From NCBI GenBank assembly GCA_043719295.1, contig JAYSUD010000008.1, positions 8,216 to 72,215 of the forward strand: a stretch of DNA of 64,000 bases, read 5' to 3'. This stretch comes from a bacterium. GTDB taxonomy: Bacteria > Patescibacteriota > Minisyncoccia > Phycocordibacterales > UBA918. This document shows positions 3,601-63,878 of the stretch, piece after piece (positions within the stretch are counted from its first letter, which is position 1; the number at the start of each line of letters is the position of its first letter). Both the position numbers and the translations under genes were made by a program. The notes beneath the pieces were generated by a model. It did not search any database, had not been told where the DNA came from, and was given only the letters and a program-made list of their open reading frames with translations.

Positions 3601-3655
3601 TTGCAAGAGGTTGACTACTATTTTGAAGTATGAAAAATACTGACAACCTGAACAG
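3601..3655 (+). repeat. ~50-nt nested-hairpin module (TTGCAAGAGGTTG-[inner hairpin]-CAACCTGAACAG). Related copies at 26608-26656 and, inverted, 28254-28302.
   Basis: The outer stem AGGTTG/CAACCT and the flanks GCAAG...GAACAG are conserved. The inner hairpin differs between copies. Confidence 0.6.
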
Positions 3656-4089
3656 CTTCTGTAAGAAGTAAGCGACTTTTGCATTTAGCAGAAGCAGGAC
3701 GCTAAGCGTATAAGCTTCCTTGGAGGTCGCTTATACGAAGCGTCTACATAAGATACATATAGTCTCACTGTCGTGATACTTATGTATCTAAACTGCTGGA
3801 CGTCTCTTATATTAGGAGATTATGACTCATACGCATAAATATAAAAAGTAGTTTTTCCATAAAATTAGGTTATAGTACAACTATATCTATAGGACAAAGC
3901 TTGCACGAAAAAATCATAATGTCCTCAGGCTATTGCAGAAGAAGTGAGCTAAAATTAAAAAAACACATAAAACTGCCTTAAGAGGCGGTTTTAGTGCGAC
4001 AGAGCATCATCTGACATATACACAAGCAAAACGTTTAAAGCTGTAGGGTTGAAAATCATATTCCAACTGAGGTAATACGCTACGTTTTC

Positions 4090-9461: not shown

Positions 9462-10013
9462 ATGGCAAAACTTGTACCAGAAAACCATCCTGTCTTACAC
9501 GCAATTGCAGAGGAAGTCACCCAAGATGAAATACAAAATGGCTTTGTTACAAAGCTGATTAAAGACATGAAAGGTGCCTTAAAAACCTATAGTGTTGATG
9601 GTTTTACTGCGGTTGCTATTGCAGCACCGCAAATTGGAGTTTCAAAGCGCCTTTTTATTATTGAGGATCAAAGTAAAGACCGCGATTCCCTTCCCTCACT
9701 TATTGCCATTAATCCCAAAATTATTAAGTCCTCTAAGAAAACGCACATCGTTGGAGAAGGTTGTTTATCACTTCCAGACTATTATGGTGAAGTAAAACGT
9801 CATACCAATGTCACTATGCGCGCTTTAGACGAACAAGGGAAACAGTACGAACGTGGCGCTGGAGGCTTATTAGCCCAAATCATCCAACATGAATACGACC
9901 ACCTTGATGGAATTTTATTTACCGACCGTGCAGAAAAAGTTTGGACAAAGAAGGAGTTAGACGCACTAAAAAAGAAAGAAGAAGCTGTGGCAAAAGAAGC
10001 ACACCATGAGTGA
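9462..10013 (+). CDS. def: Peptide deformylase.
   Basis: The three PDF motifs are present: GVSKRLF, EGCLSLP and QHEYDHLDG. Confidence 0.9.
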   Translation: MAKLVPENHPVLHAIAEEVTQDEIQNGFVTKLIKDMKGALKTYSVDGFTAVAIAAPQIGVSKRLFIIEDQSKDRDSLPSLIAINPKIIKSSKKTHIVGEGCLSLPDYYGEVKRHTNVTMRALDEQGKQYERGAGGLLAQIIQHEYDHLDGILFTDRAEKVWTKKELDALKKKEEAVAKEAHHE

Positions 10014-11788: not shown

Positions 11789-12116
11789 TCCGGTGTAGCT
11801 CAGCGGTAGAGCAATCGACTGTAACATTGAACAATGTTCAAAATAGCAGCCTTATCGAGAAATTGATATTGCAAACAAGGTGAATTGCTGGAACCCCCAC
11901 GACACAAGTCAGGGCAATCAGCAGCCAAGCTTTTGGAGAAATCCAATTGAAGGTCCAGAGACTATCCCTTCGGGGAGTAGAATGCTCACAAATGCATTCG
12001 AAGCGCCTTGCACCGTCAGTGTAGTAATACAACCGGTGATGATATAGTCCACGCCATACAGTAACGTATGAATAAGTGTAATCGATTGGTCGCAGGTTCG
12101 AATCCTGCCGCCGGAG
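11789..12116 (+). tRNA. tRNA-Asn (anticodon GUU) interrupted by a group I intron in the anticodon loop. No CCA is encoded.
   Basis: Exons tccggtgtagctcagcggtagagcaatcgactgt + taatcgattggtcgcaggttcgaatcctgccgccggag fold into a 72-nt cloverleaf. Acceptor TCCGGTG/CGCCGGA, U8, T-loop TTCGAAT, G73, and a 5-nt variable loop that excludes Tyr. Confidence 0.75.
11823..12078 (+). ncRNA. Group I self-splicing intron (~256 nt) within tRNA-Asn.
   Basis: CCAAGCTTTTGG (P5-like), GTCCAGAGACTA (J6/7-P7) and ATATAGTCC (P7'/J8-7) match the group I consensus. The intron ends in G. Boundaries are good to about 2 nt. Confidence 0.7.
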
Positions 12117-12132
12117 CTTTAGAATTTAGAGA

Positions 12133-12153
12133 CCACCCGCAAGGGTGGTTTTT
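12133..12153 (+). terminator. Rho-independent terminator downstream of tRNA-Asn.
   Basis: ccacccgcaagggtgg followed by ttttt. Confidence 0.7.
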
Positions 12154-12162
12154 AAAATTCTT

Positions 12163-12184
12163 AGCTCCGGCGGCAGGATTCGAA
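12163..12184 (+). repeat. Perfect inverted copy (22 nt) of the tRNA-Asn 3' end.
   Basis: agctccggcggcaggattcgaa is the exact reverse complement of the tRNA 3' end ttcgaatcctgccgccggagct. Together with the tRNA it makes a ~35-bp inverted repeat enclosing the terminator. Confidence 0.85.
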
Positions 12185-12238
12185 GACCTTGCCTGATATC
12201 TTTTTGAGGTACGAAATAAAATAGTGACAAGGTGTACT

Positions 12239-12268
12239 GGTCGTGTAACGACCGAAATTCCTGCCGCC
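12239..12268 (+). repeat. tRNA-flanking module: hairpin with TGTAA loop, then GAAATTCC, then a direct copy of the tRNA 3' strand.
   Basis: ggtcgtgtaacgacc-gaaattcc-tgccgcc. The tail is complementary to 12170-12182. Homologous modules at 58386-58413, 62436-62462 and 63420-63456. Confidence 0.6.
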
Positions 12269-26607: not shown

Positions 26608-26656
26608 TCGCAAGAGGTTTCCTACTCTTTTGGAAAAAGAGTGAGAACCTGTACAG
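26608..26656 (+). repeat. Nested-hairpin module (same family as 3601-3655 and 28254-28302).
   Basis: tcgcaagAGGTTtcctaCTCTTTTggaAAAAGAGtgagAACCTgtacag. Confidence 0.6.
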
Positions 26657-26708
26657 TTCCTGTAAGGAACAAGAGAGATTAAGAAGTGTGCCGTTTCCAT
26701 AAAACCTG

Positions 26709-27705: not shown

Positions 27706-28191
27706 CTATAAATAACTATCAAAATAGATTGCATGGCAAGTATAGCCACCCACATTCTTCTGCAAATAGTCCTGATGGTAACTTTCAGCAGGCCAAAAAC
27801 GTGTATACGGTTCAAGTGATGTAACAACAGGATTGTCCCAACGTTCACTCTCATTCACTACCTCAATCATCTCCTCTCCAATTTCTTTTTCTTTCTCATC
27901 TTTGTAGAAAATTGCAGAACGATACGAAGTGCCTTTGTCATTTCCCTGTTGATTTAAGGTTGTCGGGTTATGAACCTGGAAAAAGAAATCAAGAATTTGT
28001 TTGTATGAAATTACATTCTCATCATAGGTAACAAGAAGTGCTTCGGCGTGACCTTCATGTGATTCATACGTTGGATTTTCACCTTTGCCACCACTGTATC
28101 CAGCTTCAGTATCAAGAACACCTTTAAGATCACGAAAGAGTTCTTCCAATCCCCAGAAACACCCGCCAGCTATGATTGCTTCTTTTTGCAT
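27706..28191 (-). CDS. msrA: Peptide methionine sulfoxide reductase MsrA.
   Basis: MQKEAIIAGGCFWGLEELF... GCFWG active site. 161 aa. Confidence 0.9.
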   Translation of the reverse strand: MQKEAIIAGGCFWGLEELFRDLKGVLDTEAGYSGGKGENPTYESHEGHAEALLVTYDENVISYKQILDFFFQVHNPTTLNQQGNDKGTSYRSAIFYKDEKEKEIGEEMIEVVNESERWDNPVVTSLEPYTRFWPAESYHQDYLQKNVGGYTCHAIYFDSYL

Positions 28192-28250
28192 AGTTATTAT
28201 TATATTAAGAATTAACTTCTATTCTTTACTATCACCAGATAGCGACTCAG
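28151..28250 (-). repeat. Promoter/5'-CDS unit of msrA (copy 1, functional). Duplicated at 28487-28590 and, diverged, at 28321-28405.
   Basis: ~100 nt (ccccagaaacacccgccagctatgattgcttctttttgcatagttattattatattaagaattaacttctattctttactatca) recur nearly identically 336 nt upstream. Confidence 0.85.
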
Positions 28251-28320
28251 AATCTGTTCAGGTTGTCGCTCTTTTTCCAAAAGAGCAGGCAACCTCTTGC
28301 GAAGTGACATTTAGTCACTT

Positions 28321-28405
28321 CTCACCCCAGAAACATCCCCCTGCAAGTAAGGCTTCTTTTTGCATATAGTCTGATATATAAATTATGTACTTCTATTCTT
28401 ACAGA
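28321..28405 (-). pseudogene. Diverged decoy copy of the msrA start (would encode MQKEALLAGGCFWGEK*).
   Basis: On the minus strand reads ATGCAAAAAGAAGCCTTACTTGCAGGGGGATGTTTCTGGGGTGAGAAGTGA, then a hairpin and the nested-hairpin module. Confidence 0.6.
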
Positions 28406-28486
28406 ATCTGTCCACTCATTGGATTTTTTATTTCACTTCGTTCATAAAAACTCACAATGAGTCTTGCGACAGTCCCCCGGACTGTC

Positions 28487-28590
28487 TCACCCCAGAAACA
28501 CCCGCCAGCTATGATTGCTTCTTTTTGCATAGTTATTATTATATTAAGAATTAACTTCTATTCTTTACTATCAGTAGATAATGACTCAGG
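28487..28590 (-). pseudogene. Near-identical decoy copy of the msrA promoter plus first 14 codons, followed immediately by a hairpin and a U-run terminator.
   Basis: Minus-strand RNA: ...ATGCAAAAAGAAGCAATCATAGCTGGCGGGTGTTTCTGGGGTGAGACAGTCCGGGGGACTGTCGCAAGACTCATTGTGAGTTTTTAT. Confidence 0.7.
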
Positions 28591-28633
28591 ACCTGTCAAT
28601 TTGTCACTATTTTTAAAATAAAGTCACCTGACT

Positions 28634-40238: not shown

Positions 40239-40383
40239 ACCTGCCTCTATACTCCTTCTGACGTGTATAATCTTTATTTCTTACAGAGAATGCAGATTTT
40301 TCCCGTGATTCGGCAAGCAACGGCAAACGCCGTAAACAAATACTTGTTTACGGCGTGCCGATTGCTGACTGTCTGGGATGAGG

Positions 40384-40620
40384 TTAGAACTTTTTGTAGA
40401 GATACAAACCTCCAGAAACCAACAATAATGCAATTCCCGCTTTAAAAAATAAACTCGCGTAAGCTGGTGAAGTGAGGAGTATAAATCTACCAAAATCAGT
40501 TGCTGATGAAACTACGGATAAAATTCCAAAGGGCTTTAAGTTTGTCCATAGAAAACTTAATAGAAAAAGAAATAAACCTACACTGAAAGTGATTTTAACT
40601 AATTTAAATTTTTCAATCAT
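40384..40620 (-). CDS. Small membrane protein.
   Basis: 78 aa, two or three TM. Confidence 0.35.
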   Translation of the reverse strand: MIEKFKLVKITFSVGLFLFLLSFLWTNLKPFGILSVVSSATDFGRFILLTSPAYASLFFKAGIALLLVSGGLYLYKKF

Positions 40621-40656
40621 AGAAATTCATTGTAACACCTTTAGCTCAACCGTTTG

Positions 40657-40709
40657 CTGCCAGACTTGGACTCGAACCAAGATAACATCCTCCAGAGGGA
40701 TGTGTCCTA
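40657..40709 (-). pseudogene. Partial copy of tRNA-Gln (anticodon arm through 3' end, lacking acceptor 5' and D arm) ~55 nt downstream of the intact gene.
   Basis: Minus strand: ...gtaggacacatccctctggaggatgttatcttggttcgagtccaagtctggcag matches the intact tRNA from the D-loop end to the 3' end. Confidence 0.65.
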
Positions 40710-40767
40710 CAGTCAAATGAGTGAGCGAAACGAGGAAATGGATATTTCTTATTATTTACGTGCTTTG

Positions 40768-40838
40768 CTGCCAGACTTGGACTCGAACCAAGATGATATC
40801 CTCCAGAGGGATACATCCTACCATTAGATGATCTGGCA
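40768..40838 (-). tRNA. tRNA-Gln (anticodon CUG); no encoded CCA.
   Basis: Minus strand tgccagatcatctaatggtaggatgtatccctctggaggatatcatcttggttcgagtccaagtctggcag. Acceptor TGCCAGA/TCTGGCA, anticodon loop CUCUGGA, T-loop TTCGAGT. Confidence 0.7.
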
Positions 40839-40908
40839 GCACAGCACACAAATTATGAAATATTCATTTACTCATTTCCGAACGAAAGCAGATTGTATGG
40901 TTTCCATA

Positions 40909-40926
40909 CCATTAGACGATCTAGCA
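40909..40926 (-). repeat. Short imperfect copy of the tRNA-Gln 5' end, upstream of the intact gene.
   Basis: ccattagacgatctagca versus ccattagatgatctggca (2 mismatches). Confidence 0.35.
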
Positions 40927-41114
40927 ATGTGTGTGTCTGTTTGTTTGTTTCTTATTTGTCTTTAACCTACCAATACAGCTTCATGTGAAGCGCTACTTTT
41001 CATGAAGCCTGTTTGGTACATTTCTTGCGTTTTTGACGTAAGCAACACTATAGTGCCAAAATTCCTCGATAAATCAAGCTTTGTATGTCCTTAAGTCCTC
41101 AACTCTTCATACAC

Positions 41115-41744
41115 TCATTCCGCAAAGTGCGCGTGGTCGTTCCACATTTCTAGATGCCATGAGCTCTTATCGAAGGTAAAAGTGCTGATACTTGTATTAC
41201 TCATAGAAGAAATTGCATTTTTAAAATCAATATTTTCTGAAGGTGTTTGTGCTCCATGATGCAGTATGAAAATTAGAATTGATTTAATCAACGATTCATG
41301 ACTTACTACTAAAATGTGTTCTTCAGGATGACTTGCTAATTTGGCAAGCCCTAACTCTATTCTCTTATGTAGATCAGTGTAATTTTCTGCATCCTCATAC
41401 CTGGCACCTGTAACTTCATAGCACTGCTTTAGGTTTTCAAAGTATTCTTTTGCTTCAGGTCCGTTTTTTGGCTTGCCATGCATTGATGAAGCAAATTTAA
41501 TGCCACTAAAACAGTCTTCTATCTCAATCGGCAAACCAGTTACATTACTAATATATTCTGCAGTCTGGATTGTTCGTTTTAGTGATCCTGCTAGGAGTGT
41601 GGTTATGGGTAGCGATTGAATACGTTCTGCAATAAACTTTGATTGCTGATGTCCAAGTTCAGTCAATACAGCTGTCGGAAGTTTGAAAATCTTTTCTAAG
41701 TTTCCTTCAGCTTGACCATGCCGGATAAAGTAAATTGTTTTCAT
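41115..41744 (-). CDS. Histidine phosphatase family protein (phosphoglycerate mutase-like), paralog 1.
   Basis: MKTIYFIRHGQAEGN... (RHG catalytic motif) ...SHESLIKS. Ends WNDHAHFAE, the same as its neighbour. Confidence 0.75.
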   Translation of the reverse strand: MKTIYFIRHGQAEGNLEKIFKLPTAVLTELGHQQSKFIAERIQSLPITTLLAGSLKRTIQTAEYISNVTGLPIEIEDCFSGIKFASSMHGKPKNGPEAKEYFENLKQCYEVTGARYEDAENYTDLHKRIELGLAKLASHPEEHILVVSHESLIKSILIFILHHGAQTPSENIDFKNAISSMSNTSISTFTFDKSSWHLEMWNDHAHFAE

Positions 41745-41748
41745 ACAC

Positions 41749-42384
41749 TCATTCCGCAAAGTGCGCGTGGTCGTTCCAGAGGACCAATCGCCATCCCCTA
41801 TCTTCACTGTACTCAAATAAGGTAATGCCTGTGTTACTAATTTTAAAAGTAGAAGCAAGGTTGTGCCATACGTGAGTAGTTGATTCTGCTTTAAGTAGTA
41901 CAGCTGACGCAAAACACATCATAAAGAAACTATGGGAAACAACTAAAATTGTTTCTGCGTCATCTGTTTCAAGAAGTGATTTTGCTTGTTGTACACGAGC
42001 AAAAATGTCTTCGAAGTTCTCTCCGTCTTCTTGTCGCCACGTTGGGTTTTCTACATTTGCATTTCTGTTTTTACGGTGCGACAGAACTCGCTCATCTTCT
42101 TCAGATATATTGAACAATGAAGATGGTTCAATTACCTCTCCAAAGACTGGAGCGGTATTTGGAACAATGTTTTTCAATAGAGCAATTGGCTCTGTTGTCT
42201 GCTCAGCTCGGAGAAAATCACTTACGTATATTTTCTTAATTTCTAAATCTTTCACACGCGATGCAACAAGTTCTGCTTGTGCGAATCCATTAAGATTTAG
42301 CGGTTCAGCTTTACTCGGCACGTACCGCTCTACATTCGAATCAGTCTCTCCATGTCGTACAAAATATATTCGTTTGGTTGTCAT
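41749..42384 (-). CDS. Histidine phosphatase family protein, paralog 2 (tandem).
   Basis: MTTKRIYFVRHGETDSN... ...VSHSFFM. The last ~32 nt (cactcattccgcaaagtgcgcgtggtcgttcca) are identical to paralog 1. Confidence 0.75.
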   Translation of the reverse strand: MTTKRIYFVRHGETDSNVERYVPSKAEPLNLNGFAQAELVASRVKDLEIKKIYVSDFLRAEQTTEPIALLKNIVPNTAPVFGEVIEPSSLFNISEEDERVLSHRKNRNANVENPTWRQEDGENFEDIFARVQQAKSLLETDDAETILVVSHSFFMMCFASAVLLKAESTTHVWHNLASTFKISNTGITLFEYSEDRGWRLVLWNDHAHFAE

Positions 42385-45304: not shown

Positions 45305-45470
45305 AAGTACAGTATACCTTACAGGTACTGTCTACTCACTTGTTTTTTATCCACTCCGTTCCCAAAAGACTCAGTGAGTCTTGCGAAATGCTTCAAGCAT
45401 TTCTCACCATGCACCAGTAGCGAACATGTTGCTATGTGTGGATGAATACTCTGAAAGTGATACAGAATAA

Positions 45471-54300: not shown

Positions 54301-54592
54301 TATGCGGAGGTCTATTGTTATTGGAGAGTTCCAGCAGTTTCTGCTGAGCCTAGTGTAGGACACTGCTAACGCTGAGGTCCTACACTTGTCTCTAGGTCAG
54401 CAGCAGAAACTGTAAACAAAGTTCGCCATTGTCGCTTGCGTATATGCGGAGTCATATTGTTGTTGGAGAGTTCCAGCAGTTTTCGCTGAGTAACATTCAA
54501 AGCACAGCTAACGCTGAGGCTTTGAATGTTACTCTGGGTCAGCGCAAAAACTGGGTGAAAAGCGAATACTTGGAGCTTCGCAAGACTCATTG
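54301..54592 (-). repeat. Two tandem copies (C 54301-54440, D 54441-54592) of the hairpin repeat element in inverted orientation; a third partial unit at ~54640-54675.
   Basis: Both units share the tatatgcggag...gagagttccagcag leader and the ctcagcgttagc(a/t)gt loop (rc). Their stems differ but stay complementary (covariation). Confidence 0.7.
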
Positions 54593-54724
54593 AGGTTCTA
54601 TGGAACGAAGTGGAGTAGAATCCAATGAGTGGACAGCTTCTGTAAGAAGAGGAGTTCGCCATTCTCGCTTGCGCTCTGTGGCTCACTCCTTGCTAACAAA
54701 CCGTTACGGCCATACAATGAATTT

Positions 54725-56339: not shown

Positions 56340-57920
56340 CTACAACCCAAAGTTCTTCATTGAATACAAGTCATCGTCATCATCTTTTTTTGCTGGAGTT
56401 GGTTCTTTAGTTTCTGTGACAACAGCTTGTTGTATAGGTTCACTTTGCACAACTTCTTGCATAACGATTACGGGTTCAATTTTTTGTTCGAAGTTTGTAG
56501 CACGTGGTGTTAAGAAATCAGTGCCTTCAAAAGAAGGAGCTTCTGCTTTCGCTTCATTGTTCAATTTTTGCATATTTGCCTTTAGAGCATCTTGCATACC
56601 ATCTCCGTTTTGATCTGTCCCGTTTGAGCTTTGAGGTTGCATAACTGCATTTGAAACAACGGGATACGTTGTATACGAAGTACCGTACGCCTCTTCTTCA
56701 ACAACAGGACGTTCATAGGCTACATACCCACTTGGTGGTACTTTCATATCTTCTCGTTCTTGCATCTGTGCCTGTGTCTCACTTCCTTCTTGGTAACTGG
56801 TATGAACTTCATTTGTATCAAGTGCATGGCGTTGTGTACCATCTCTTGATGGTTCTTGTGTGGCGTTAGAAAGTCCTGCAAATTCTGCATTCTCTGCAAT
56901 CACATTCTCAAGCTCCTCCCTAACTGCTTGCTCTGCCTCAAGTGCGTCTTCAACCCGAATCTCATCTTCTACGCGCTCAGGCTGTGGTTCTACCAACTCA
57001 AGTACGGTAGCATCTGTAATCTTTTCAAGTTCTTGGATATGGGTAGTGCTACTTTCTTCTTCACCTCCCGCCATATGGAAATCAGTAATCTTTCCTTGCG
57101 ACTTCATAATTGCCAACAGTTTCTGAAGGTCTTCATCAGAGAAGTAATCAATAGTGAGCTTTCCCCCAAAGTCAGTTTTAAGAATTTGCACACGCGTGCC
57201 TAATGTATCGGTAAACTCTCGTTCAATCTCAATCAAGACTGCATCCGTGTTTGCCCAGTTCTTCTTTCGCACTTTGTCTGATGCAATTTTTCGAACAATG
57301 CGTTCAACTTCACGTACTGAAAGTTTTTTCAAAAGAATCTCACGGAAGATAACGTCCTGCTCTTCAGGTTTATCATTAAGCATCAACAGCGTCCGCGCGT
57401 GACCCTCGCTAATGTCAGCAGTTCGAAGCGATGAGAGCATATAGTCAGGCAATCCCAAAAGACGAATGGTATTTGAAACGTACTCACGACTTCGTCCTAC
57501 TTTTTTTGCAACAGCTGCATGCGGAAGATTAAACACGTCAGCTAACTGTCGAAACGCAAGAGCTCTGTCAACAGCGTTTAAGTCCTCTCGCTGTAAGTTT
57601 TCAATAATAGCAAGTTCAAGTTTTTCCTGCTCAGAGTTTTCACCCGTTCGGATAATAACAGGGACTTGCTCCATGCCTGCAAGGCGTGATGCACGTAACC
57701 GACGTTCACCAGCGATAAGTTCGTATTGTGTGAAAAAAGCACCGTCTTTGGTTTGTATTTCTTTTCGTGTAACGGTCAGAGGTTGCAGAATCCCGTACAT
57801 GCGGATAGACTCCGACAATTCTTTGAGTTTTGATTCATCAAATTCCCGCCGTGGTTGAAACGGATTGGGAACGATTTTTTCTACCTCCACCCAAAAAATT
57901 GAATCTCCTTGAAAAGCCAT
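56340..57920 (-). CDS. parB: ParB-like partition protein with a long low-complexity acidic C-terminal extension.
   Basis: ParB/Srx box GILQPLTVT...YELIAGERRLRASRLAG...VPVII, HTH region, then ~250 aa of E/Q/T-rich disordered sequence. Confidence 0.7.
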   Translation of the reverse strand: MAFQGDSIFWVEVEKIVPNPFQPRREFDESKLKELSESIRMYGILQPLTVTRKEIQTKDGAFFTQYELIAGERRLRASRLAGMEQVPVIIRTGENSEQEKLELAIIENLQREDLNAVDRALAFRQLADVFNLPHAAVAKKVGRSREYVSNTIRLLGLPDYMLSSLRTADISEGHARTLLMLNDKPEEQDVIFREILLKKLSVREVERIVRKIASDKVRKKNWANTDAVLIEIEREFTDTLGTRVQILKTDFGGKLTIDYFSDEDLQKLLAIMKSQGKITDFHMAGGEEESSTTHIQELEKITDATVLELVEPQPERVEDEIRVEDALEAEQAVREELENVIAENAEFAGLSNATQEPSRDGTQRHALDTNEVHTSYQEGSETQAQMQEREDMKVPPSGYVAYERPVVEEEAYGTSYTTYPVVSNAVMQPQSSNGTDQNGDGMQDALKANMQKLNNEAKAEAPSFEGTDFLTPRATNFEQKIEPVIVMQEVVQSEPIQQAVVTETKEPTPAKKDDDDDLYSMKNFGL

Positions 57921-58054
57921 AACAAAAACACATAACCACGAAAAAATGCCTCTCATTTCTTCGCTTTTCCTCCTAACTCCCCCATTCTACCACAGCAAAG
58001 TTTTTGAGTGGCTGTTTATAACTTTCAAAGAATCTGTTACACTTGCCCTTGCCT

Positions 58055-58136
58055 GCCTCGGTGGCGGAATTGGTATACGCGCACGACTCAAAATCGTGTG
58101 CCGCAAGGCTTGAGGGTTCGACCCCCTCCCGAGGCA
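58055..58136 (+). tRNA. tRNA-Leu (anticodon CAA), type II with a long variable arm; no CCA.
   Basis: gcctcggtggcggaattggtatacgcgcacgactcaaaatcgtgtgccgcaaggcttgagggttcgaccccctcccgaggca. Acceptor GCCTCGG/CCGAGGC, loop CUCAAAA. Confidence 0.75.
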
Positions 58137-58145
58137 CAATAAAAC

Positions 58146-58167
58146 AGCACCTTTTGGTGCTTTTTTA
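58146..58167 (+). terminator. Rho-independent terminator after tRNA-Leu.
   Basis: agcaccttttggtgcttttttat. Confidence 0.7.
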
Positions 58168-58317
58168 TGTGACGAGGAGAAAGCAAACTTCTTTGCTTTT
58201 GTGAGGGTGTCGAAAGACGGAACGATGCCGAAGGCAAGTGAGCCGGGGTCGCAGAAATTTCTGAAAGAAATTATCTGTGACCGCCCACCGAGGAACAAGT
58301 GACTGAATGTCACTTGT

Positions 58318-58413
58318 GGGAGGGGGTCGAAAAGGTTGCCTGATATTTTGTGACGTAAGGAAACAAAATATCGATAACCTGTACTGAACATGTAATGTTC
58401 GATTCCCCTCGAC
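58318..58413 (+). repeat. tRNA-Leu flanking modules: inverted copy of the tRNA T-loop/acceptor (58318-58331) followed by the TGTAA-hairpin module (58386-58413).
   Basis: gggagggggtcgaa = rc of ttcgaccccctccc. Then gaacatgtaatgttc-gattcc-cctcgac. Confidence 0.55.
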
Positions 58414-58500
58414 TTTCCCCAATTTTTCTATAAGCTACTGTACAGACCAGTCCTTTGTAAGCAGGAGCTGGTTTCCTCACAATTTAACCGAGCACTGGAG

Positions 58501-59256
58501 GTGCAAATGCCCATATTCCTTACTTCCAAAGACCTAGGTTGTGGTATCTGGCTCGCATTGGACATGGACAACTTCGAGGAAGCTCTCGACTTGACCGGTC
58601 AAACCGGCGAATATATTGATGGTGTCAAAGTTCATGGCATCGTTGAAGACGCTATGAAGGAAAAACTTGGCAAGCTCCGTAAAGTTGGTGCAAAAAAAAT
58701 TTGGCTCGACCGAAAGGTCGATGACACCCCAGGGACCGTCAAGATCGTTTCGAGGAACGCTCACGACTGTGGTGCCGACAGAATGACCGTCATGGCATCT
58801 GCTGGCATTGAGGCAATGATGACTGCCATCAATCATGGTCCTGCCGAAATTGTCGCCGTCACCGACCTCACTTCACTTTCAAAAGCCGAAATTGGAATGT
58901 CGCGTGGAATGCCGGCCGACGCCTCTGTGCTTCAAAAAGCACAATGGGCAAAGCTTGCTGGAGTTAAGCTTGTTGTCTGTTCAGTTGAGGAGGTGGCTGA
59001 ACTGGACAAACGCCGAGGATATTCCAGACTGGCAGATTGCCATCTGGAACTGAATGGAATGAAGTTTACAGTCCCAGGCAGCAGAACCATCACGGACATT
59101 CTGAAAGGACAAGTGCGGAGCAACACCGCAATGGCGACCCTTGCTGCCGGAGCCGATGAACTGGTGCTCGGGAGCGAAGTTTGGGAAGCCAGACAGCCCT
59201 TCGATGCACTTCAACAGGTCTATCATTCAATTCTAGAATACATGAACAAACAATAA
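58501..59256 (+). CDS. Orotidine 5'-phosphate decarboxylase-family (PyrF/KGPDC-like) protein, in a GC-rich island.
   Basis: IWLALDMDNFEEALDLTGQ...KIWLDRKVDDTPGTV resembles the OMPDC-family (ALD..., D-K-D-P-T) motifs. GC ~55% versus ~40% for the window. Confidence 0.45.
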   Translation: MQMPIFLTSKDLGCGIWLALDMDNFEEALDLTGQTGEYIDGVKVHGIVEDAMKEKLGKLRKVGAKKIWLDRKVDDTPGTVKIVSRNAHDCGADRMTVMASAGIEAMMTAINHGPAEIVAVTDLTSLSKAEIGMSRGMPADASVLQKAQWAKLAGVKLVVCSVEEVAELDKRRGYSRLADCHLELNGMKFTVPGSRTITDILKGQVRSNTAMATLAAGADELVLGSEVWEARQPFDALQQVYHSILEYMNKQ

Positions 59257-59487
59257 AACCCTCCGGCGAGATTCTGCATACATTCACGAAGCTGAATGTA
59301 TCCAAAATCTCGCCGGACACCTCAAACCGTCGGTTTTGGAAAGTATACACATCGTATATTTCCCCAAGCCGACGGTTTTTTCTTTTCTTGTATTTTTTAT
59401 ATTTTAGAGTAGTCTACAATTCATCACCAAACCGTCACACATGTGACTTTATCGGGAGGATTGTACCTTGAGAGCACTTACAGAAGT

Positions 59488-60160
59488 TATGGCTGAGGCT
59501 CATACCGTCGCTGAAGTTTTTACCGACAAACACTTTATCTACACGGGAGGAGATCACGGCGATGGATACGTGAACTACAGACCACTTGGGGCTGTGGGGT
59601 CTGAGTTCCTTCTTCGCGAGGTATGTGTGCATCTGGTCCGCAATATGCTCATTGGAGTTCCTGTTGAGAAATACAGAAACATTGTCATCATTGGCCCAGA
59701 AACGATGGGTGCAAAAATGGTAAAGCAAATCGGTTGCACCTTGGAAGATGAGCTTCCTTATATCATCCATACGAGGACTTTTGTCAAAGACCCCAACAAG
59801 GCAAAAAGCTTTTTGTGGAATGCTGATCCGGAAAAACTGCTCGATGAAGATTCTCTGGTTTTGTGGATTGACGATCTCCTGAACGGAGGGACGACGTTTG
59901 AAGCAACCGCACCGATGATTCACTACTACGATGCACAGGTGTACGGCATCGGGGTTATCGGCGACCGCAGTGGACTTACTCCAGAAAAGCTTAGCGTTCG
60001 CCGTATCACATCGCTTGAGCAGTTTAGCCTCAAGAGATACCCTGAGGCAGAGTGCCCTTCTTGCCGCGACCACATCCCAATTGTTGATAATCTTGGACAC
60101 GGTGCGAAGTTCAAGGCAACTCATCCAAGCTATCAAGGTGGATTCATTCCTGCCAGATAG
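59488..60160 (+). CDS. Type I phosphoribosyltransferase (orotate PRTase-like), in the GC-rich island.
   Basis: PRPP-binding motif LVLWIDDLLNGGTTF. Start may be TTG at 59468. Confidence 0.5.
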
Positions 60161-60239
60161 CATGCATGACCTTCAACGGGCGGACTATACACTCTCAGAT
60201 GAGAATACATTGTCAGCCCGTTGGAGAAATACGACGCCG

Positions 60240-60285
60240 TTACCCTTCATCGGATACGGCGTTTCTTTTTTTCTAAAATTCAACA
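60240..60285 (+). terminator. Rho-independent terminator closing the GC-rich island.
   Basis: acgacgccgttacccttcatcggatacggcgtttcttttttt. Confidence 0.6.
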
Positions 60286-60525
60286 ACGAGAATTTATAAT
60301 AACAATACCAGTAAGGAAATTAGATTCTTCACGTCATCACGAATAACATGTACATACGCACACAAAATTATTGGATGATGAAGACCTTTACCTCACGTAC
60401 GCCTTTTTGGCGACTGGTTTTGTTTCGGTATATCATCTAACTCCCCTTTTTTTGAAATAACACAACAGAACCAGTCTCTAAGACTGGTTCTGTTCTTTTT
60501 GGTTCTTTAAATAAGGAGGAAGCCT

Positions 60526-60828
60526 ATGTCCGAAATTTGTTTTGTTCCTGTAATTGGGTATGTTCCAAGTATGCATCCAAATCAACAACTTGGATATGAA
60601 ATCTGGGTAAGTAATCCACAACGTGCAGTACCGTACATCTTCAAAACAACACTGCAAGAATATAACAAACAACAAGGTGGTAATCTGTTTGGACAAGAGT
60701 GCATGATATATGGTTTATATCTTCATGTATCTCCCTTAGCTTTGTACGCAACAAAGGAACAGGCCTTGTTTGCACTCGGGGTTTTTATTCCTACAAAAAC
60801 AATGTACGATCTTGATGCCGCGCGTTAG
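60526..60828 (+). CDS. Hypothetical small protein.
   Basis: 100 aa, no motif. Preceded by a hairpin/T-run at 60465-60500. Confidence 0.35.
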   Translation: MSEICFVPVIGYVPSMHPNQQLGYEIWVSNPQRAVPYIFKTTLQEYNKQQGGNLFGQECMIYGLYLHVSPLALYATKEQALFALGVFIPTKTMYDLDAAR

Positions 60829-60870
60829 CGCGGCATTTCTTTTTCCTGTTTCTTTGCTACACTTCCCAAA

Positions 60871-61797
60871 ATGGAATCACACAAAAAACCTAAAGTTATC
60901 GTTATAGTCGGCCCAACCGCTTCCGGAAAAACGGCGCTTTCTTTAATGCTTGCAAAACAATTAAAGGGCGAAGTGATTAACGCTGATTCACGCCAAGTAT
61001 ACAAAAGACTTGATGTTGGTACCGAGAAAATTACGTATGAAGAAATGGAAGGAATCCCTCACCACTTGTTAAGTATCGTCGACATCAACACAGTCTACAC
61101 CGCCATGGATTTTAAAAAAGATGCAGAAACTGCAATTACAGAAATTACAGAACGTGGCAATATCCCCATTATTGCAGGGGGTACTTTTTTCTACATTGAT
61201 ACGTTGTTAGGAAAGATGGGTACTTCTCCTGTAGAACCAAATTGGGAACTTCGGGAAGAACTGGAAAAATATTCGACAGAAGAATTGTTCACGTTATTAC
61301 AGAAAAAAGATCCACGGCGTGGAGATACCATTGAAAAGGATAATAAACGACGTCTCATTCGTGCACTTGAAATTGTCGATAAGCTTCAAAGTGTCCCCGC
61401 ACAAAACCCAAATGCAGAATGCCCATACGATGTCCTTACAATCGGTATTTCTGTTGAAAAAGAAGTCCTCAAAGAACGTCTTCGCATACGTGCGCAAGAC
61501 GCACTCACAAGAGGACTCATTGAAGAAACACAATCGCTCCTAGCCTGTGGAGTTTCAAAGGAACGGCTTTTAGAAATCGGCCTGCAGTACAAAGTTGTCA
61601 TGGAATACATTGACGGGATAATCACCGATACAGAACTAATCCAAAAACTTGGAGAAAAGAACTGGCAGTACGCAAAGCGCCAACTGCTCTGGTTAAAACG
61701 AAATGAGGATATTGTCTGGTTTAAACGCGAAGACACAGATGCTCTATCTGGAGTTGTATCAGAATTTCTCAAAAACTATCCAAAATCAATTCGTTGA
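60871..61797 (+). CDS. miaA: tRNA dimethylallyltransferase.
   Basis: VIVIVGPTASGKTALS...DSRQVYK...GGTFFY: MiaA P-loop and conserved blocks. Confidence 0.9.
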   Translation: MESHKKPKVIVIVGPTASGKTALSLMLAKQLKGEVINADSRQVYKRLDVGTEKITYEEMEGIPHHLLSIVDINTVYTAMDFKKDAETAITEITERGNIPIIAGGTFFYIDTLLGKMGTSPVEPNWELREELEKYSTEELFTLLQKKDPRRGDTIEKDNKRRLIRALEIVDKLQSVPAQNPNAECPYDVLTIGISVEKEVLKERLRIRAQDALTRGLIEETQSLLACGVSKERLLEIGLQYKVVMEYIDGIITDTELIQKLGEKNWQYAKRQLLWLKRNEDIVWFKREDTDALSGVVSEFLKNYPKSIR

Positions 61798-61855
61798 TTT
61801 TTAACCTATTTTCACATACACTGTTGAACACCAAGAAATTGGTACAAAGAACTAC

Positions 61856-61987
61856 GGGCCTATAGTTCTATGGAAAGAAATCAAAGATTTCTTCCTTCCA
61901 GCACTCACTCGGAAATGTAAGCGAGCTTCCATTTCTCTCGTGTCGTTTGGAAGGAGAATTTCCGGTTTCCAAAACCGTAGATCGAGG
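61856..61987 (+). pseudogene. Partial tandem copy of tRNA-Trp (5' end through T-stem 5' strand) carrying an ~83-nt structured insertion in the D-loop; lacks T-loop and 3' acceptor.
   Basis: gggcctatagttctatgg + [aaagaaatcaaagatttcttcc...ggaagg] + agaatttccggtttccaaaaccgtagatcgagg. The intact gene follows 18 nt later. Confidence 0.6.
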
Positions 61988-62004
61988 ACTTGTAGAAAAT
62001 ATTG

Positions 62005-62075
62005 GGGCCTATAGTTCAATGGTAGAATTCCGGTTTCCAAAACCGTAGATCGAGGTTCGAATCCTCGTGGGCTCG
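62005..62075 (+). tRNA. tRNA-Trp (anticodon CCA); no CCA.
   Basis: gggcctatagttcaatggtagaattccggtttccaaaaccgtagatcgaggttcgaatcctcgtgggctcg. Acceptor with two G-U pairs, loop UUCCAAA. Confidence 0.7.
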
Positions 62076-62462
62076 CTCGAGTAAAGAAAAAACATAATGC
62101 TGAAGCATTATGTTTTTTCTTTAGAACCTGACCTGCGTCAGGTTCGTGCTCGAGCGAGAGACGGAGACATGTCGCCTGCGACAGTCGAGTCGGGGTCGAG
62201 AGTACTTATGATTTGAGGAGGTACGACGATAATCATTAGTAACTCGTGACCGCAGTGAGCCCACGAGGCATAGCTTTTTGAAAAAATGCGTAGTGCGATT
62301 CGAAGCCCGATTGAGATAATTTTGGAGCGAAGCGAACAAAATTATCCAATTGGGATACTGGTCGTGTAAGCAAAGCTTTCTTTCACTGCATTCCTATTAC
62401 AAATAAAAATGAACTTTTCTTTGAATACTCATTTGTGAAAGTAACGACCGAAATTCCTCGTT
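62076..62462 (+). repeat. Highly structured tRNA-Trp 3' flank: nested stems pairing with the tRNA 3' end, then the TGTAA-hairpin/GAAATTCC module.
   Basis: gctcgctcgag (62071-81) pairs ctcgagcgag (62151-60). gagcccacgagg (62257-68) is the exact complement of the tRNA 3' cctcgtgggctc. Module gtgaaagtaacgaccgaaattcctcg at 62436-62462. Confidence 0.55.
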
Positions 62463-62466
62463 GTCT

Positions 62467-62859
62467 CTAACACTCACCAATCTCATTCCACTGTCCAAAT
62501 CCAGATTCAGCACTCACCAGTCCTTTCATAACAGTATCAATAATCAACCAACCTGCAATAATGATTACAAACCCAATAATGATATTACTTACCATCCCTT
62601 TTGCTTTCTCCATTGCTCCACTATTGCCTTGAGAGATAACTAACTGAAATCCGGCATACATCACCATCATCACCGCTGCTAAAGTCAGAAGTACAAACAA
62701 AAAATCAAAAACACGATCAACCATCTGTACGAGAGTACAAAAATCACAATTAGGTTGACCTGCGTTGCCACAGGTAACCAGTCCGTCAGCGGCAAACGTA
62801 ACGTGAGCCAAAAGACTTGTGACAAAAAATATCAAGGAAAATAGCAATACAAACTTCAT
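62467..62859 (-). CDS. Small secreted/membrane protein resembling TrbC/VirB2-type (type IV secretion) pilins.
   Basis: Signal peptide, Cys-containing segment, then ...MMVMYAGFQLVISQGNSGAMEKAKGMVSNIIIGFVIIIAGWLIID...: hydrophobic helix - polar loop - hydrophobic helix layout typical of VirB2/TrbC/PrgF pilins. Confidence 0.35.
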   Translation of the reverse strand: MKFVLLFSLIFFVTSLLAHVTFAADGLVTCGNAGQPNCDFCTLVQMVDRVFDFLFVLLTLAAVMMVMYAGFQLVISQGNSGAMEKAKGMVSNIIIGFVIIIAGWLIIDTVMKGLVSAESGFGQWNEIGEC

Positions 62860-62981
62860 ACGTAATACAATAATACTAGCACAGCACTACTTCAAATTTG
62901 ACACCCCTTTCCTATCCCCTCCTAATATGATAGTTTATAAGCCTTGTGGTCTCACTAAAATTTGACTCAAGAGTTGCTAAA

Positions 62982-62996
62982 TACAACTATGCGTCG
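62982..62996 (+). repeat. 15-nt copy of the tRNA-Tyr 5' end, ~170 nt upstream of the intact gene.
   Basis: gcgtcggtggcagag is identical to the first 15 nt of the tRNA, followed by the hairpin gatgaaaagtgaatagtttcacttttcatc. Confidence 0.55.
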
Positions 62997-63165
62997 GTGG
63001 CAGAGCGGATGAAAAGTGAATAGTTTCACTTTTCATCTGGTCTACGAGCGAATGCGAGTAGATTGGTCGCTGTGAGTAATTGCGAAGCTTTTATGAACAG
63101 ACCAAAGGAGGAAGACGAGTCCAACGCTCAGAAACATAAAAACGTTCTTGAGCAAGCATAACATT

Positions 63166-63248
63166 GCGTCGGTGGCAGAGTGGTCAATTGCAAGAGACTG
63201 TAAATCTCTCGGCTTCGGCCTACGAAGGTTCAAATCCCTCCCGGCGCA
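63166..63248 (+). tRNA. tRNA-Tyr (anticodon GUA), type II with a long variable arm; no CCA.
   Basis: gcgtcggtggcagagtggtcaattgcaagagactgtaaatctctcggcttcggcctacgaaggttcaaatccctcccggcgca. Acceptor GCGTCGG/CCGGCGC, loop CUGUAAA, A73. Confidence 0.75.
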
Positions 63249-63260
63249 CAAAATACCAAA

Positions 63261-63285
63261 ACCCAAAGCGGATGCTTTGGGTTTT
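63261..63285 (+). terminator. Rho-independent terminator after tRNA-Tyr.
   Basis: acccaaagcggatgctttgggttttgtt. Confidence 0.7.
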
Positions 63286-63295
63286 GTTGTATTTT

Positions 63296-63456
63296 GGCGT
63301 CGGGAGGGATTTGCACCACAAGAGTATTTCCATTTTTATATTCCCTTCAGTCATTAAAAATTAAGTCAAGACCTTTTGAGATAGATTTGACTGAAAGGAA
63401 AATATACCCAAAAGGTGTACCGGTCATGTAATGACCAAAATTCCCTCCCGGCGCAC
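63296..63456 (+). repeat. tRNA-Tyr flanking modules: inverted 3'-end copy (63296-63313), a 27-nt block shared with 26546-26572, and the TGTAA-hairpin module ending in a direct copy of the tRNA 3' strand (63420-63456).
   Basis: ggcgtcgggagggatttg is close to rc of caaatccctcccggcgc. caccacaagagtatttccatttttata is repeated at 26546. ccggtcatgtaatgacc-aaaattcc-ctcccggcgcac. Confidence 0.6.
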
Positions 63457-63497
63457 TTTTTAAAAACGAGCGTCTACTTTTGTAGGTGCCGTTTTTA

Positions 63498-63878
63498 TTA
63501 GTGTTTAATTAATTCCCAAGTATTGTATAAAACTGGATATGATCCATCTATAAACCAAGCAAGCAAAACTATACTAACTAAAACTAGCGAAATGCCAAAT
63601 ACCATCTTATCTACTTCTCTAGGTGAATTTTTAAGAGATTTGAAACTTAAAATAAAAGCCAGAAGATAACTCGCGTGGATAATAAATATTCCAAAATTAA
63701 CAGATAACTGCATCCATGCTAAATGGGCAGTAGTTGGAACAGAAAAGAATGTCAGTATTTTTGAAAATACACCATTAAAAGTATCTATTGACGCCAATCC
63801 GGAAATTGTCACTATGATTCCAGCGAAAAACAAAACAAACGATAATTTATATTTTTTCATGCAATAAAATTTTAGCAC
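63498..63878 (-). CDS. Hypothetical membrane protein (4 TM).
   Basis: 126 aa, hydrophobic, no motif. Confidence 0.4.
   Translation of the reverse strand: MLKFYCMKKYKLSFVLFFAGIIVTISGLASIDTFNGVFSKILTFFSVPTTAHLAWMQLSVNFGIFIIHASYLLAFILSFKSLKNSPREVDKMVFGISLVLVSIVLLAWFIDGSYPVLYNTWELIKH

What the first reader, a model, noticed from the sequence alone, without database searches (positions are those of the whole stretch)
40655..40930. tRNA-Gln locus: intact gene flanked by a 3' two-thirds copy and a 5'-end fragment of itself
On the minus strand the order is [5' fragment 40926-40909] - [tRNA-Gln 40838-40768] - [copy from D-loop to 3' end 40709-40657]. Fragmentary self-copies in the same orientation are what sequential integration and excision at a tRNA att site leaves behind, but here they are only 50-70 nt apart. 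The other four tRNA loci in the window show related behaviour.
Basis: seen in the sequence. Interest (0 to 1): 0.6.

Follow-up and report, generated by a model that had tools for sequence, protein, structure and literature searches.

The report
tRNA gene nested inside split tRNA
In this candidate-phyla-radiation bacterium an intact glutamine tRNA gene sits inside a 196-base hairpin-shaped insertion that has split an older copy of the same tRNA gene in its D loop. It is one example of an apparently undescribed set of tiny non-coding elements that insert into tRNA genes and bring a working replacement with them.

Summary
On the minus strand lie a 20-nt 5' fragment (40926-40907), an intact tRNA-Gln(CUG) (40838-40767) and a 55-nt D-loop-to-3'-end copy (40710-40656).

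The two partial copies are complementary halves of one tRNA-Gln(CUG) gene. They overlap by 3 nt (GTA), and joined they give a valid tRNA. Every difference from the intact gene preserves tRNA structure, including a compensatory pair that spans the two halves.

So a 196-nt cassette (left arm, own tRNA-Gln, right arm, folding as a long hairpin) is inserted in the D loop of another tRNA-Gln gene. The same nested arrangement occurs in an unrelated metagenome contig (L114). A syntenic relative (L133) has the gene uninterrupted.

Related D-loop inserts split tRNA-Trp and tRNA-Gln relics elsewhere. A second family, a three-helix module with a palindromic copy of the tRNA 3' end, follows tRNA-Asn, Leu, Trp and Tyr here and tRNAs of at least ten identities in 44 metagenome loci.

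No integrase, transposase or reverse transcriptase is present in the 64 kb, and there is no Rfam, viral or literature match. The insertion mechanism is unknown.

The parts
40907..40926 (-). 5' half of the split (outer) tRNA-Gln(CUG): positions 1-20, TGCTAGATCGTCTAATGGTA
   Evidence: 18/20 identical to the intact gene, chance expectation 0.01. Preceded by ..acacat|T, like the native upstream context of tRNA-Gln in relatives. Joined to 40706-40656 it gives a valid 72-nt tRNA-Gln(CUG).
40839..40906 (-). Left arm of the inserted cassette. It holds a junction hairpin GTATGG-AAA-CCATAC (40909-40895, shared with the last 3 nt of the 5' half), a conserved 30-nt end, a -10-like TTCATAAT (about 40859-40852) and a leader GTGCTGTGC.
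   Evidence: Homologous left arm in L114: the first ~31 nt are ~87% identical and the TCATAAT/TCATAGT box is kept. The hairpin is flagged as terminator-like. The arm pairs with the right arm in the MFE fold.
40767..40838 (-). Intact inner tRNA-Gln(CUG), with U1-A72 and G73
   Evidence: ARAGORN; Rfam RF00005 55.1 bits.
40711..40766 (-). Right arm of the cassette: trailer GCAAAGCAC pairing with the leader, and a conserved end ..GCTCACTCATTTGACT
   Evidence: Alignment with L114. The leader-trailer helix is kept in L114 through three double (compensatory) changes, read. Related right ends occur in D-loop inserts of L108, L116 and the window tRNA-Trp relic.
40656..40710 (-). 3' half of the split (outer) tRNA-Gln(CUG): positions 18-73 plus one base, GTAGGACACATCC...GGCAGC. 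GTA (40710-40708) duplicates the GTA at 40909-40907.
   Evidence: Five differences from the inner gene, all structure-preserving: C27-G43 replaces U27-A43; C25 pairs with G10 of the 5' half; A26 and U45 are unpaired. Alone it is not a tRNA (Rfam 20.1 bits against a 29-bit cut-off).
12117..12268 (+). T-loop element downstream of the intron-containing tRNA-Asn(GUU) (11789-12116): terminator, inverted copy of the tRNA 3' end plus trailer (12163-12184), P2/P3 module, GAAATT, and a 9-nt direct copy of the T-stem/acceptor 3' strand (12260-12268)
   Evidence: covariance model R1 95.2 bits at 12173-12264.
58138..58410 (+). T-loop element (long variant) downstream of tRNA-Leu(CAA)
   Evidence: R1 75.8 bits at 58320-58410.
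61856..61987 (+). Relic of a tRNA-Trp gene upstream of the intact one: positions 1-18, an 81-nt D-loop insert (61874-61954) of the same family as the Gln cassette but without a tRNA, then positions ~20-53
62077..62461 (+). T-loop element (long variant, with P3 interrupted by a ~70-nt insert) downstream of tRNA-Trp, ending in GTAACGACCGAAATT + CCTCGT
   Evidence: R1 29.3 bits.
62991..63008 (+). 5' fragment copy of tRNA-Tyr (positions 1-18), followed by a hairpin inserted in the D loop
63250..63456 (+). T-loop element downstream of tRNA-Tyr, ending in a 14-nt exact copy of the tRNA 3' end (63443-63456)
   Evidence: R1 46.1 bits.

Best explanation
The locus is one tRNA-Gln(CUG) gene nested inside another.

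Shown:
- A 196-bp non-coding cassette lies in the D loop of a tRNA-Gln(CUG) gene, after G18-U-A, with GTA duplicated at the two junctions.
- The cassette consists of a conserved left end, a -10-like box, a complete tRNA-Gln(CUG) embedded in a leader-trailer helix, and a conserved right end. It folds as one long hairpin with the tRNA at its tip.
- The '5' fragment' and the '3' two-thirds copy' are the two halves of the interrupted gene.

Inferred:
- The inner gene supplies the function and the outer halves are inert.
- The cassette belongs to a family of small mobile, target-restoring elements of candidate-phyla-radiation bacteria. They insert at the two most conserved tRNA sequences, the D loop (GG-TA) and the T loop (TTCGAAT). 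They are tolerated because they bring along a working copy, or the missing part, of the gene they hit.
- They are moved in trans by an enzyme encoded elsewhere. They probably spread between lineages as whole units including the flanking tRNA halves, in a homing-like way with co-conversion.

Not established:
- The enzyme and the chemistry. My preferred guess is a recombinase acting on a folded single strand, because the elements are built of covarying hairpins, and the T-loop type carries a palindrome that mimics the duplex of the tRNA 3' end.
For: 1. Complementary halves. Positions 1-20 plus 18-73 with a 3-nt overlap, and any near-correct join gives tRNA-Gln(CUG).
2. All 7 differences between the split and the inner gene preserve structure. 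Two are compensatory pairs, and one of these (G10-C25 against A10-U25) spans the two halves, so the halves belonged to one gene.
3. The same architecture occurs in metagenome contig L114, with the same junctions (..AATGGTA|TGGARACCATACA.. and ..TTGACT|GTAGGAC), conserved cassette ends and a covarying leader-trailer helix. L114 also carries a further, outer 13-nt 5' fragment.
4. Empty site. The syntenic DnaX / His-phosphatase x2 / tRNA-Gln(CUG) locus of L133 and L134 has an uninterrupted gene.
5. The cassette with its flanks folds far better than shuffles, with z = -5.8 for the window and -5.0 for L114.
6. Family. Inserts with related ends sit at the same D-loop position, with a TA duplication, in tRNA-Trp and tRNA-Gln relics of the window, L108 and L116.
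7. Transfer. The window and L114 tRNA-Gln sequences differ at 3-6 of 72 positions, whereas other CPR tRNA-Gln(CUG) genes, including syntenic L133, differ from them at 13-28. The flanking proteins are only 25-54% identical.
8. Context. In the loci tested, 5' fragments upstream and 3' fragments or inverted copies downstream are common at CPR tRNAs and rare at non-CPR tRNAs. The motif search gave 44 metagenome loci, and an intact same-strand tRNA of one of at least ten identities was found upstream in roughly two thirds of the motif instances.
Against: - No transposase, integrase or reverse transcriptase is seen, so mobility is inferred from distribution only.
- There are only two nested-Gln examples.
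- The cassette has no terminal inverted repeats at its very ends, and a 3-bp duplication could be coincidental sequence ambiguity.
- The halves are better conserved than the middle of the cassette arms. That could instead mean they are still under selection (see the split-tRNA rival).
- The relatedness of the window organism and the L114 organism is measured on short, paralogous protein segments only.
Confidence: 0.7

Rival explanations
1. Classical att-site scars. Integrase-encoding islands or prophages integrated into and excised from the tRNA-Gln gene several times, leaving partial tRNA copies. The intervening DNA was later deleted down to 50-70 nt.
For: Partial, same-orientation tRNA copies next to an intact gene are the known signature of elements that integrate into tRNA genes (PMC3293823; bioRxiv 10.1101/2022.07.05.498093). 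The T-loop elements at the other loci do end in a direct copy of the tRNA 3' end, as attR does.
Against: Integration at a 3' att site does not produce a 5' fragment. The two fragments fit together exactly as halves of one gene. Identical short spacers with conserved ends recur in L114, which independent deletions would not give. No integrase is present in the 64 kb.
Confidence: 0.08
2. The outer gene is still functional, either as a tRNA gene with a D-loop intervening sequence or as a two-piece tRNA. RNase P and RNase Z release the inner tRNA. The two outer halves stay paired through the arm helix and the acceptor stem, or are ligated, and act as a second tRNA-Gln.
For: Both halves are complete and all their differences from the inner gene preserve structure. 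The MFE fold forms the outer acceptor stem, anticodon arm and T arm, with the insert as one long arm emerging from the D loop. The arm helix covaries between the window and L114. The halves differ from L114 at only 3 of 73 positions while the arm middles have diverged.
Against: No bacterial machinery is known for splicing at a D loop, and I found no bulge-helix-bulge motif at the junctions by inspection. The inner gene has the same anticodon, so nothing selects for the outer one. Comparable relics at other loci are truncated or decayed, e.g. window tRNA-Trp, L108, L116 and the outer fragment in L114. The junction hairpin followed by a T-run looks like a terminator directly after the 5' half. 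From my own knowledge, D-loop size is an identity element for GatCAB on tRNA-Gln. The high similarity of the halves is explained equally well by recent transfer.
Confidence: 0.1
3. Local tandem triplication of the tRNA-Gln gene by replication slippage, followed by deletions that happened to remove complementary parts of the outer copies. No mobile element is involved.
For: Tandem tRNA duplications are common. Hairpin-rich DNA promotes slippage. This genome has other local duplications, at msrA and upstream of relA.
Against: It requires two independent deletions that leave exactly positions 1-20 and 18-73. It does not explain the complementary arms, the conserved ends, the recurrence in L114, or the same D-loop position in tRNA-Trp and tRNA-Gln relics of other genomes.
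Confidence: 0.05
4. Assembly artefact: a chimeric or collapsed join of reads from several tRNA-Gln alleles.
For: The source is probably a metagenome assembly, and short-read contigs break in this repeat.
Against: The same order of parts, with different sequence, occurs in an independent metagenome (L114). The arms are unique sequence that forms a coherent structure.
Confidence: 0.02

Closest known systems
Genomic islands, prophages and integrative plasmids that integrate into tRNA genes and carry a copy of the displaced tRNA part (tyrosine-integrase att sites in the anticodon or T loop; pNOB8/SSV-type elements in archaea; model of Sugahara et al. 2012, PMC3293823)
   Same: The target is a tRNA gene. 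The gene is kept functional because the incoming DNA brings replacement tRNA sequence. Partial tRNA copies in the same orientation are left behind. T-loop elements end in a direct repeat of the tRNA 3' end.
   Different: The elements here are 90-470 nt, non-coding and built of covarying hairpins, with no integrase nearby. The Gln cassette carries a whole tRNA gene and sits in the D loop. A 5' fragment is left as well as a 3' fragment.
Archaeal non-canonical tRNA introns and split or tri-split tRNA genes (Thermoproteales intron transposition; Nanoarchaeum and Caldivirga split tRNAs)
   Same: There are interruptions at D-loop and T-loop positions, related intervening sequences recur in different tRNA genes, and the halves could pair.
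   Different: This is a bacterium. No bulge-helix-bulge motif was seen, an intact copy is always present next to the interrupted one, and most interrupted copies are truncated.
[quoted passage not shown]
   Same: A selfish insert sits in a tRNA gene. There is apparent spread between lineages together with flanking tRNA sequence. This same genome has a true group I intron in tRNA-Asn.
   Different: The Gln insert gives no match to the Rfam group I intron model. At 124 nt of non-tRNA sequence it is too small for a ribozyme core. It lies in the D loop rather than the anticodon loop.
Folded single-strand recombination sites (integron attC sites; CTX-phage attP(+) used by XerCD) and MITE/REP-like miniature elements
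   Same: All are small and non-coding, present in many copies per genome and moved in trans. Structure is conserved more than sequence, and a palindrome mimics a duplex target.
   Different: No R'/R'' (GTT/AAC) core, dif-like site or terminal inverted repeats were found. The link to gene-restoring duplications of tRNA and msrA is not a known property of these elements.

Membership tests
Integrase-mediated tRNA att scars (genomic island / prophage) | Direct repeat of the tRNA 3' segment (from the anticodon loop or T loop to the 3' end) at both ends of the element | tested here: not met
   At the Gln locus the repeat starts in the D loop and is matched by a complementary 5' fragment. The feature is met at the Asn, Tyr, Trp and Leu loci, where 6-14 nt starting from the T stem are repeated.
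Integrase-mediated tRNA att scars (genomic island / prophage) | Integrase (or other recombinase) gene within or next to the element | tested here: not met
   Pfam scan of 50 window ORFs found no PF00589, transposase or reverse transcriptase family. The spacers are 56 and 68 nt.
Archaeal-type spliced or split tRNA | Bulge-helix-bulge motif at both exon-intron junctions | tested here: inconclusive
   Manual inspection of the junction sequences found no 3-4-3 motif. No dedicated search tool was available.
Archaeal-type spliced or split tRNA | Splicing endonuclease (EndA) and ligase in the genome, and mature spliced tRNA | not testable with these tools
   Only 64 kb of the genome is available and there are no RNA data. 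No such gene is among the window ORFs scanned.
Group I intron in tRNA | Match to the group I catalytic core (RF00028) inside the insert | tested here: not met
   Permissive Rfam E-value scan of 40300-41300 gave only tRNA and chance miRNA hits. The tRNA-Asn intron at 11823-12078 serves as a positive control, at 80 bits.
MITE / IS-derived miniature element | Short target-site duplication | tested here: met
   GTA flanks the cassette in the window and in L114. TA flanks the related D-loop inserts of L108 and L116.
MITE / IS-derived miniature element | Terminal inverted repeats at the element ends | tested here: not met
   The outermost ~28 nt on the left and ~20 nt on the right are not complementary. 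Only the internal arms pair.
Known RNA families (Rfam 15) | Score at or above the gathering threshold for the arms or the T-loop module | tested here: not met
   Only tRNA and the group I intron pass. Permissive scans of 57800-63700 and 40300-41300 gave nothing credible.

The most novel reading that the evidence does not exclude
CPR bacteria harbour a previously undescribed class of protein-less, structure-defined mobile cassettes. These home into the universally conserved D-loop and T-loop sequences of tRNA genes, and into at least one conserved protein-coding site, the GCFWG codons of msrA. They neutralise the damage by carrying a replacement gene or gene end. Target choice is encoded in a folded nucleic-acid mimic of the target (the palindromic copy of the tRNA acceptor/T-arm 3' strand) rather than in an element-encoded protein. 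As a by-product they replace resident tRNA alleles horizontally and create nested or split tRNA genes in bacteria.
Probability: 0.3. Interest if true: 0.85.

Novelty: new variant of a known kind. Interest (0 to 1): 0.7.

Why it matters
If the reading holds, tRNA genes in a large part of the bacterial tree are being overwritten by tiny selfish cassettes.
- This would be a route for horizontal replacement of tRNA alleles.
- It would be a bacterial source of interrupted, nested and fragmentary tRNA genes, which until now have been discussed mainly for archaea.
- It would be a cause of contig breaks and tRNA mis-annotation in CPR metagenome assemblies.

The associated three-helix module and the palindromic target mimic have no database match. 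They point to a recombination or transposition mechanism with nucleic-acid-encoded specificity, which could be looked for experimentally.

Tried and rejected
- Phage origin. blastn of 38-44 kb against the phage collection matched only a dnaX segment. Four scans of viral contigs with element motifs gave 0 hits.
- Known RNA families. Rfam gathering and permissive scans found nothing.
- Recombinase in the window. Pfam on 50 ORFs found none. The 85-aa ORF carried inside the L121 element has no Pfam hit.
- Closer strains. Exact-protein look-ups gave only the same organism's short Logan contigs, which break in the repeats, or loci without the tRNA.
- 'The guide is a copy of the tRNA leader plus 5' strand'. 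Rejected: the sequence before the guide is the reverse complement of the discriminator plus trailer in 15 of 23 loci, against 5 of 23 for the leader.
- DGR-like template/variable repeats. Rejected: the differences between copies are not adenine-specific.
- Hammerhead or other small ribozymes, box C/D sRNA, integron attC and dif were considered from motif resemblance. They were dropped for lack of the defining motifs or of any Rfam hit.
- Two apparent extra motif hits (3508-3524 and 9673-9689) were chance matches; the latter lies inside the def gene, and the former is not an element on inspection.
- Literature. Five full-text searches found no description of these elements.

Full report
**What is there.** The window comes from a CPR (Paceibacterota/Parcubacteria-like) bacterium. 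Its DnaX is at best 56% identical to MAG proteins of that group in the reference-genome collection, and 68.5% identical to the L133/L134 metagenome contigs. ARAGORN finds four tRNAs. A fifth, tRNA-Asn(GUU) at 11789-12116, is split by a group I intron.

On the minus strand the Gln locus reads as follows:
- 5' fragment TGCTAGATCGTCTAATGGTA (40926-40907);
- 68 nt of spacer;
- intact tRNA-Gln(CUG) (40838-40767);
- 56 nt of spacer;
- GTAGGACACATCC...GGCAGC (40710-40656).

Both copies are far beyond chance: expectations are 0.01 and 0.00 matches, and no shuffle reached the observed count.

**The two partial copies are halves of one gene.**
- They cover positions 1-20 and 18-73 and overlap only in GTA. 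Joining them gives a tRNA-Gln(CUG) that ARAGORN accepts.
- Neither is a tRNA with its own neighbours. ARAGORN finds nothing, and Rfam scores the 3' copy at 20.1 bits against a cut-off of 29.
- The composite differs from the inner gene at 7 of 72 positions:
  - C4>U, which gives U4.G69;
  - A10>G together with U25>C, a compensatory D-stem pair whose two sides lie in different fragments;
  - U27>C together with A43>G, a compensatory anticodon-stem pair;
  - G26>A and C45>U, both unpaired.
- So the fragments were once, or still are, one properly folding tRNA gene, now interrupted after G18-U-A by 196 nt (40906-40711) that contain the intact gene.

**The insert is a defined unit.**
- Its two arms pair along most of their length, with the tRNA at the tip (MFE -92.9 kcal/mol, z = -5.8).
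- Metagenome contig L114 has the same order of parts and the same junctions..AATGGTA|TGGAGACCATACAG.. and ..CTCACTTGACT|GTAGGAC.
- Between the window and L114 the first ~31 nt of the left arm are ~87% identical, and a -10-like TCATAAT/TCATAGT box and the last ~17 nt of the right arm are conserved. The middle has diverged.
- The 8-9-bp leader-trailer helix that extends the acceptor stem is kept through three double substitutions, as read.
- L114 has one further layer: a 13-nt 5' fragment followed by a related insert, lying upstream of the 20-nt fragment.

**Empty site and relationships.**
- L133 and L134 share the gene order Dus ... DnaX, two His-phosphatases, tRNA-Gln(CUG). Their DnaX is 68.5% identical to the window's. 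Their tRNA-Gln(CUG) is uninterrupted and is followed by a T-loop element.
- L114 also has the two His-phosphatase genes upstream, but they are only 23-54% identical to those of the window and 28-39% identical to those of L133.
- Yet the window and L114 tRNA-Gln sequences, both halves and inner genes, differ at only 3-6 of 72 positions. Other CPR tRNA-Gln(CUG) genes, including L133, differ from them at 13-28.
- I read this as transfer of the tRNA/cassette complex between lineages, including the flanking halves, as in homing with co-conversion. It also means that the good preservation of the halves need not reflect function.

**A family of D-loop inserts.** Inserts of 79-83 nt begin with the hairpin AAGAAATC-AAA-GATTTCTT and share the motifs CTGCGTTCGG / TCGGAAATG, TCCATTTC.TCGT and an end ..CTC..TCA.TTGAC. 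Three of them (81-83 nt) lie at the same D-loop position, and a TA duplication flanks those of L108 and L116:
- in the tRNA-Trp relic of the window (61874-61954);
- in a tRNA-Trp relic of L116;
- in a tRNA-Gln relic of L108.

A fourth (79 nt) forms the outer layer of L114, inserted earlier, after position 13. Those relics are truncated, and an intact gene follows 16-45 nt downstream.

**The other tRNA loci: T-loop elements.** After tRNA-Asn, Leu, Trp and Tyr come, in order:
1. a terminator hairpin;
2. an inverted copy of the tRNA 3' end;
3. a conserved module;
4. GAAATT;
5. a direct copy of the T-stem and acceptor 3' strands, 6-14 nt long.

A metagenome scan with the module's 3' motif returned 44 loci. 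In roughly two thirds of the 47 motif instances examined, ARAGORN finds an intact tRNA upstream on the same strand, usually 70-400 nt away. The identities are Gln, Asn, Val, Tyr, Ser, Ile, Trp, Arg, Lys and His, and pile-ups of two or three elements occur.

The sequence before the inverted copy is the reverse complement of the discriminator plus trailer in 15 of 23 loci. So the region from the T loop to ATTCGAA is one long palindrome centred on the terminator.

The 93-nt core folds as a three-way junction made of a closing helix, a variable P2 and a P3 with a UGUAA loop. Of the pair cells, 97.4% are paired, 8 pairs show double changes, and 0 of 500 shuffles reached the observed covariation score.

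A covariance model built from it finds the four tRNA-linked copies in the window and five further weaker partial or full-length matches that are not next to tRNAs. It finds none at the Gln locus.

Across the loci tested, self-copies within 400 nt are frequent at CPR tRNAs. In the motif loci, 25 of 61 tRNAs have a direct 3' copy and 22 of 61 an inverted one. Among non-CPR controls the figures are 5 of 28 and 2 of 28.

**What moves them is unknown.** 50 of the 61 ORFs of at least 100 aa in the window were scanned against Pfam; those with hits are housekeeping or surface proteins (some had none), and no integrase, transposase or reverse transcriptase appears. The modules are absent from Rfam and from IMG/VR. 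Five full-text searches found no description.

The features point to a mobile element handled in trans as a folded single strand. Those features are covarying hairpins, a palindromic duplex mimic of the target, short TA/GTA duplications, a precise right junction with variable left junctions, and many copies per genome. The analogy is to integron attC sites or CTX-phage attP with Xer recombinases. This is inference, not a result.

**Comparison with known systems.**
- The closest known kind is the tRNA-targeting integrative element that restores its target. The logic is the same, but size, content, position and the lack of a recombinase differ.
- Archaeal mobile tRNA introns and split tRNAs resemble the anatomy, but their defining splice motif was not found, and most interrupted copies here are truncated.
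- I therefore file this as a new variant of a known kind. A substantial chance remains that the mechanism is new.

**Verdict.** The best explanation is a miniature tRNA-carrying cassette nested in the D loop of another tRNA-Gln gene, belonging to a wider set of target-restoring elements in CPR genomes (confidence 0.7). A functional split tRNA remains possible (about 0.1).

Noticed in passing
window 28150-28600 (minus strand): The promoter-proximal region plus the first 41 nt of msrA (ATG..TGTTTCTGGGG, i.e. up to the GCFWG active-site codons) occurs three times: at 28530-28490, at 28365-28325 and at the start of the intact gene (28191). Each relic copy is followed by TGAG, a hairpin (one is the same GTGACTAAATGTCAC hairpin seen in tRNA T-loop elements), CGC and the P2/P3 module. 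A 107-nt direct repeat is 94% identical. This is the same 'relic - module - intact gene' pattern, at a protein-coding gene.
   Followed up: partly
window 3605-3669(+), 26612-26670(+), 28394-28465(-), 45314-45382(-), 54571-54661(+): Solo copies of the P2/P3 module lie away from tRNAs (covariance-model scores 17-35 bits), usually preceded by G(G)TGAGA + hairpin + (T)CGC. The copy upstream of relA/spoT is flanked by AGTTCGCCATT[G/C]TCGCTTGCG repeats, and 142-nt-spaced duplications lie next to it.
   Followed up: partly
window 11789-12116 (+): tRNA-Asn(GUU) is interrupted by a group I intron at 11823-12078, with CUGU|...G|UAA in the anticodon loop; ARAGORN misses it. The same intron-bearing Asn-type tRNA with a T-loop element is seen in L112 and L117; L096 also has a group I intron upstream of a pile-up of T-loop elements. 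Its acceptor stem is extended by a 10-bp leader-trailer helix, as in the inner tRNA-Gln.
   Followed up: partly
window 40767-40838 and 11789-12116: Both tRNA-Gln and tRNA-Asn start with U1-A72. From my own knowledge this is the identity feature used by GatCAB amidotransferase, which suggests the indirect pathway for both amino acids.
   Followed up: no
window 62371-62440 (+): The P3 hairpin of the tRNA-Trp T-loop element is split by a ~70-nt insertion (GTGTAAGC|aaagctttc...tttgtgaaa|GTAACGACCGAAATT). This suggests that elements insert into one another.
   Followed up: no
L095, L111, L116, L124, L125; window 58160-58320 and 62130-62290: 'Long-variant' T-loop elements contain an extra GC-rich domain (..GGCGGAGCCGGGG..GACGAATCCC..) bounded by GGGATTCG / CGAATCCC. 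It looks like a second type of insert sitting, in the opposite orientation, in the T-loop-like sequence of the guide.
   Followed up: no
L087 and L098 (upstream of their T-loop elements): A repeated 33-nt motif ACAGCGGTTCGAAC.TCCTTCACC.A.CGGAGC takes the place where the tRNA 3' end is expected, and no tRNA is detected there.
   Followed up: no
window 41115-42384 (-): Two tandem histidine-phosphatase paralogues lie between dnaX and tRNA-Gln. Their shared C-terminal coding sequence breaks short-read contigs (the Logan contig ends at 41749).
   Followed up: partly
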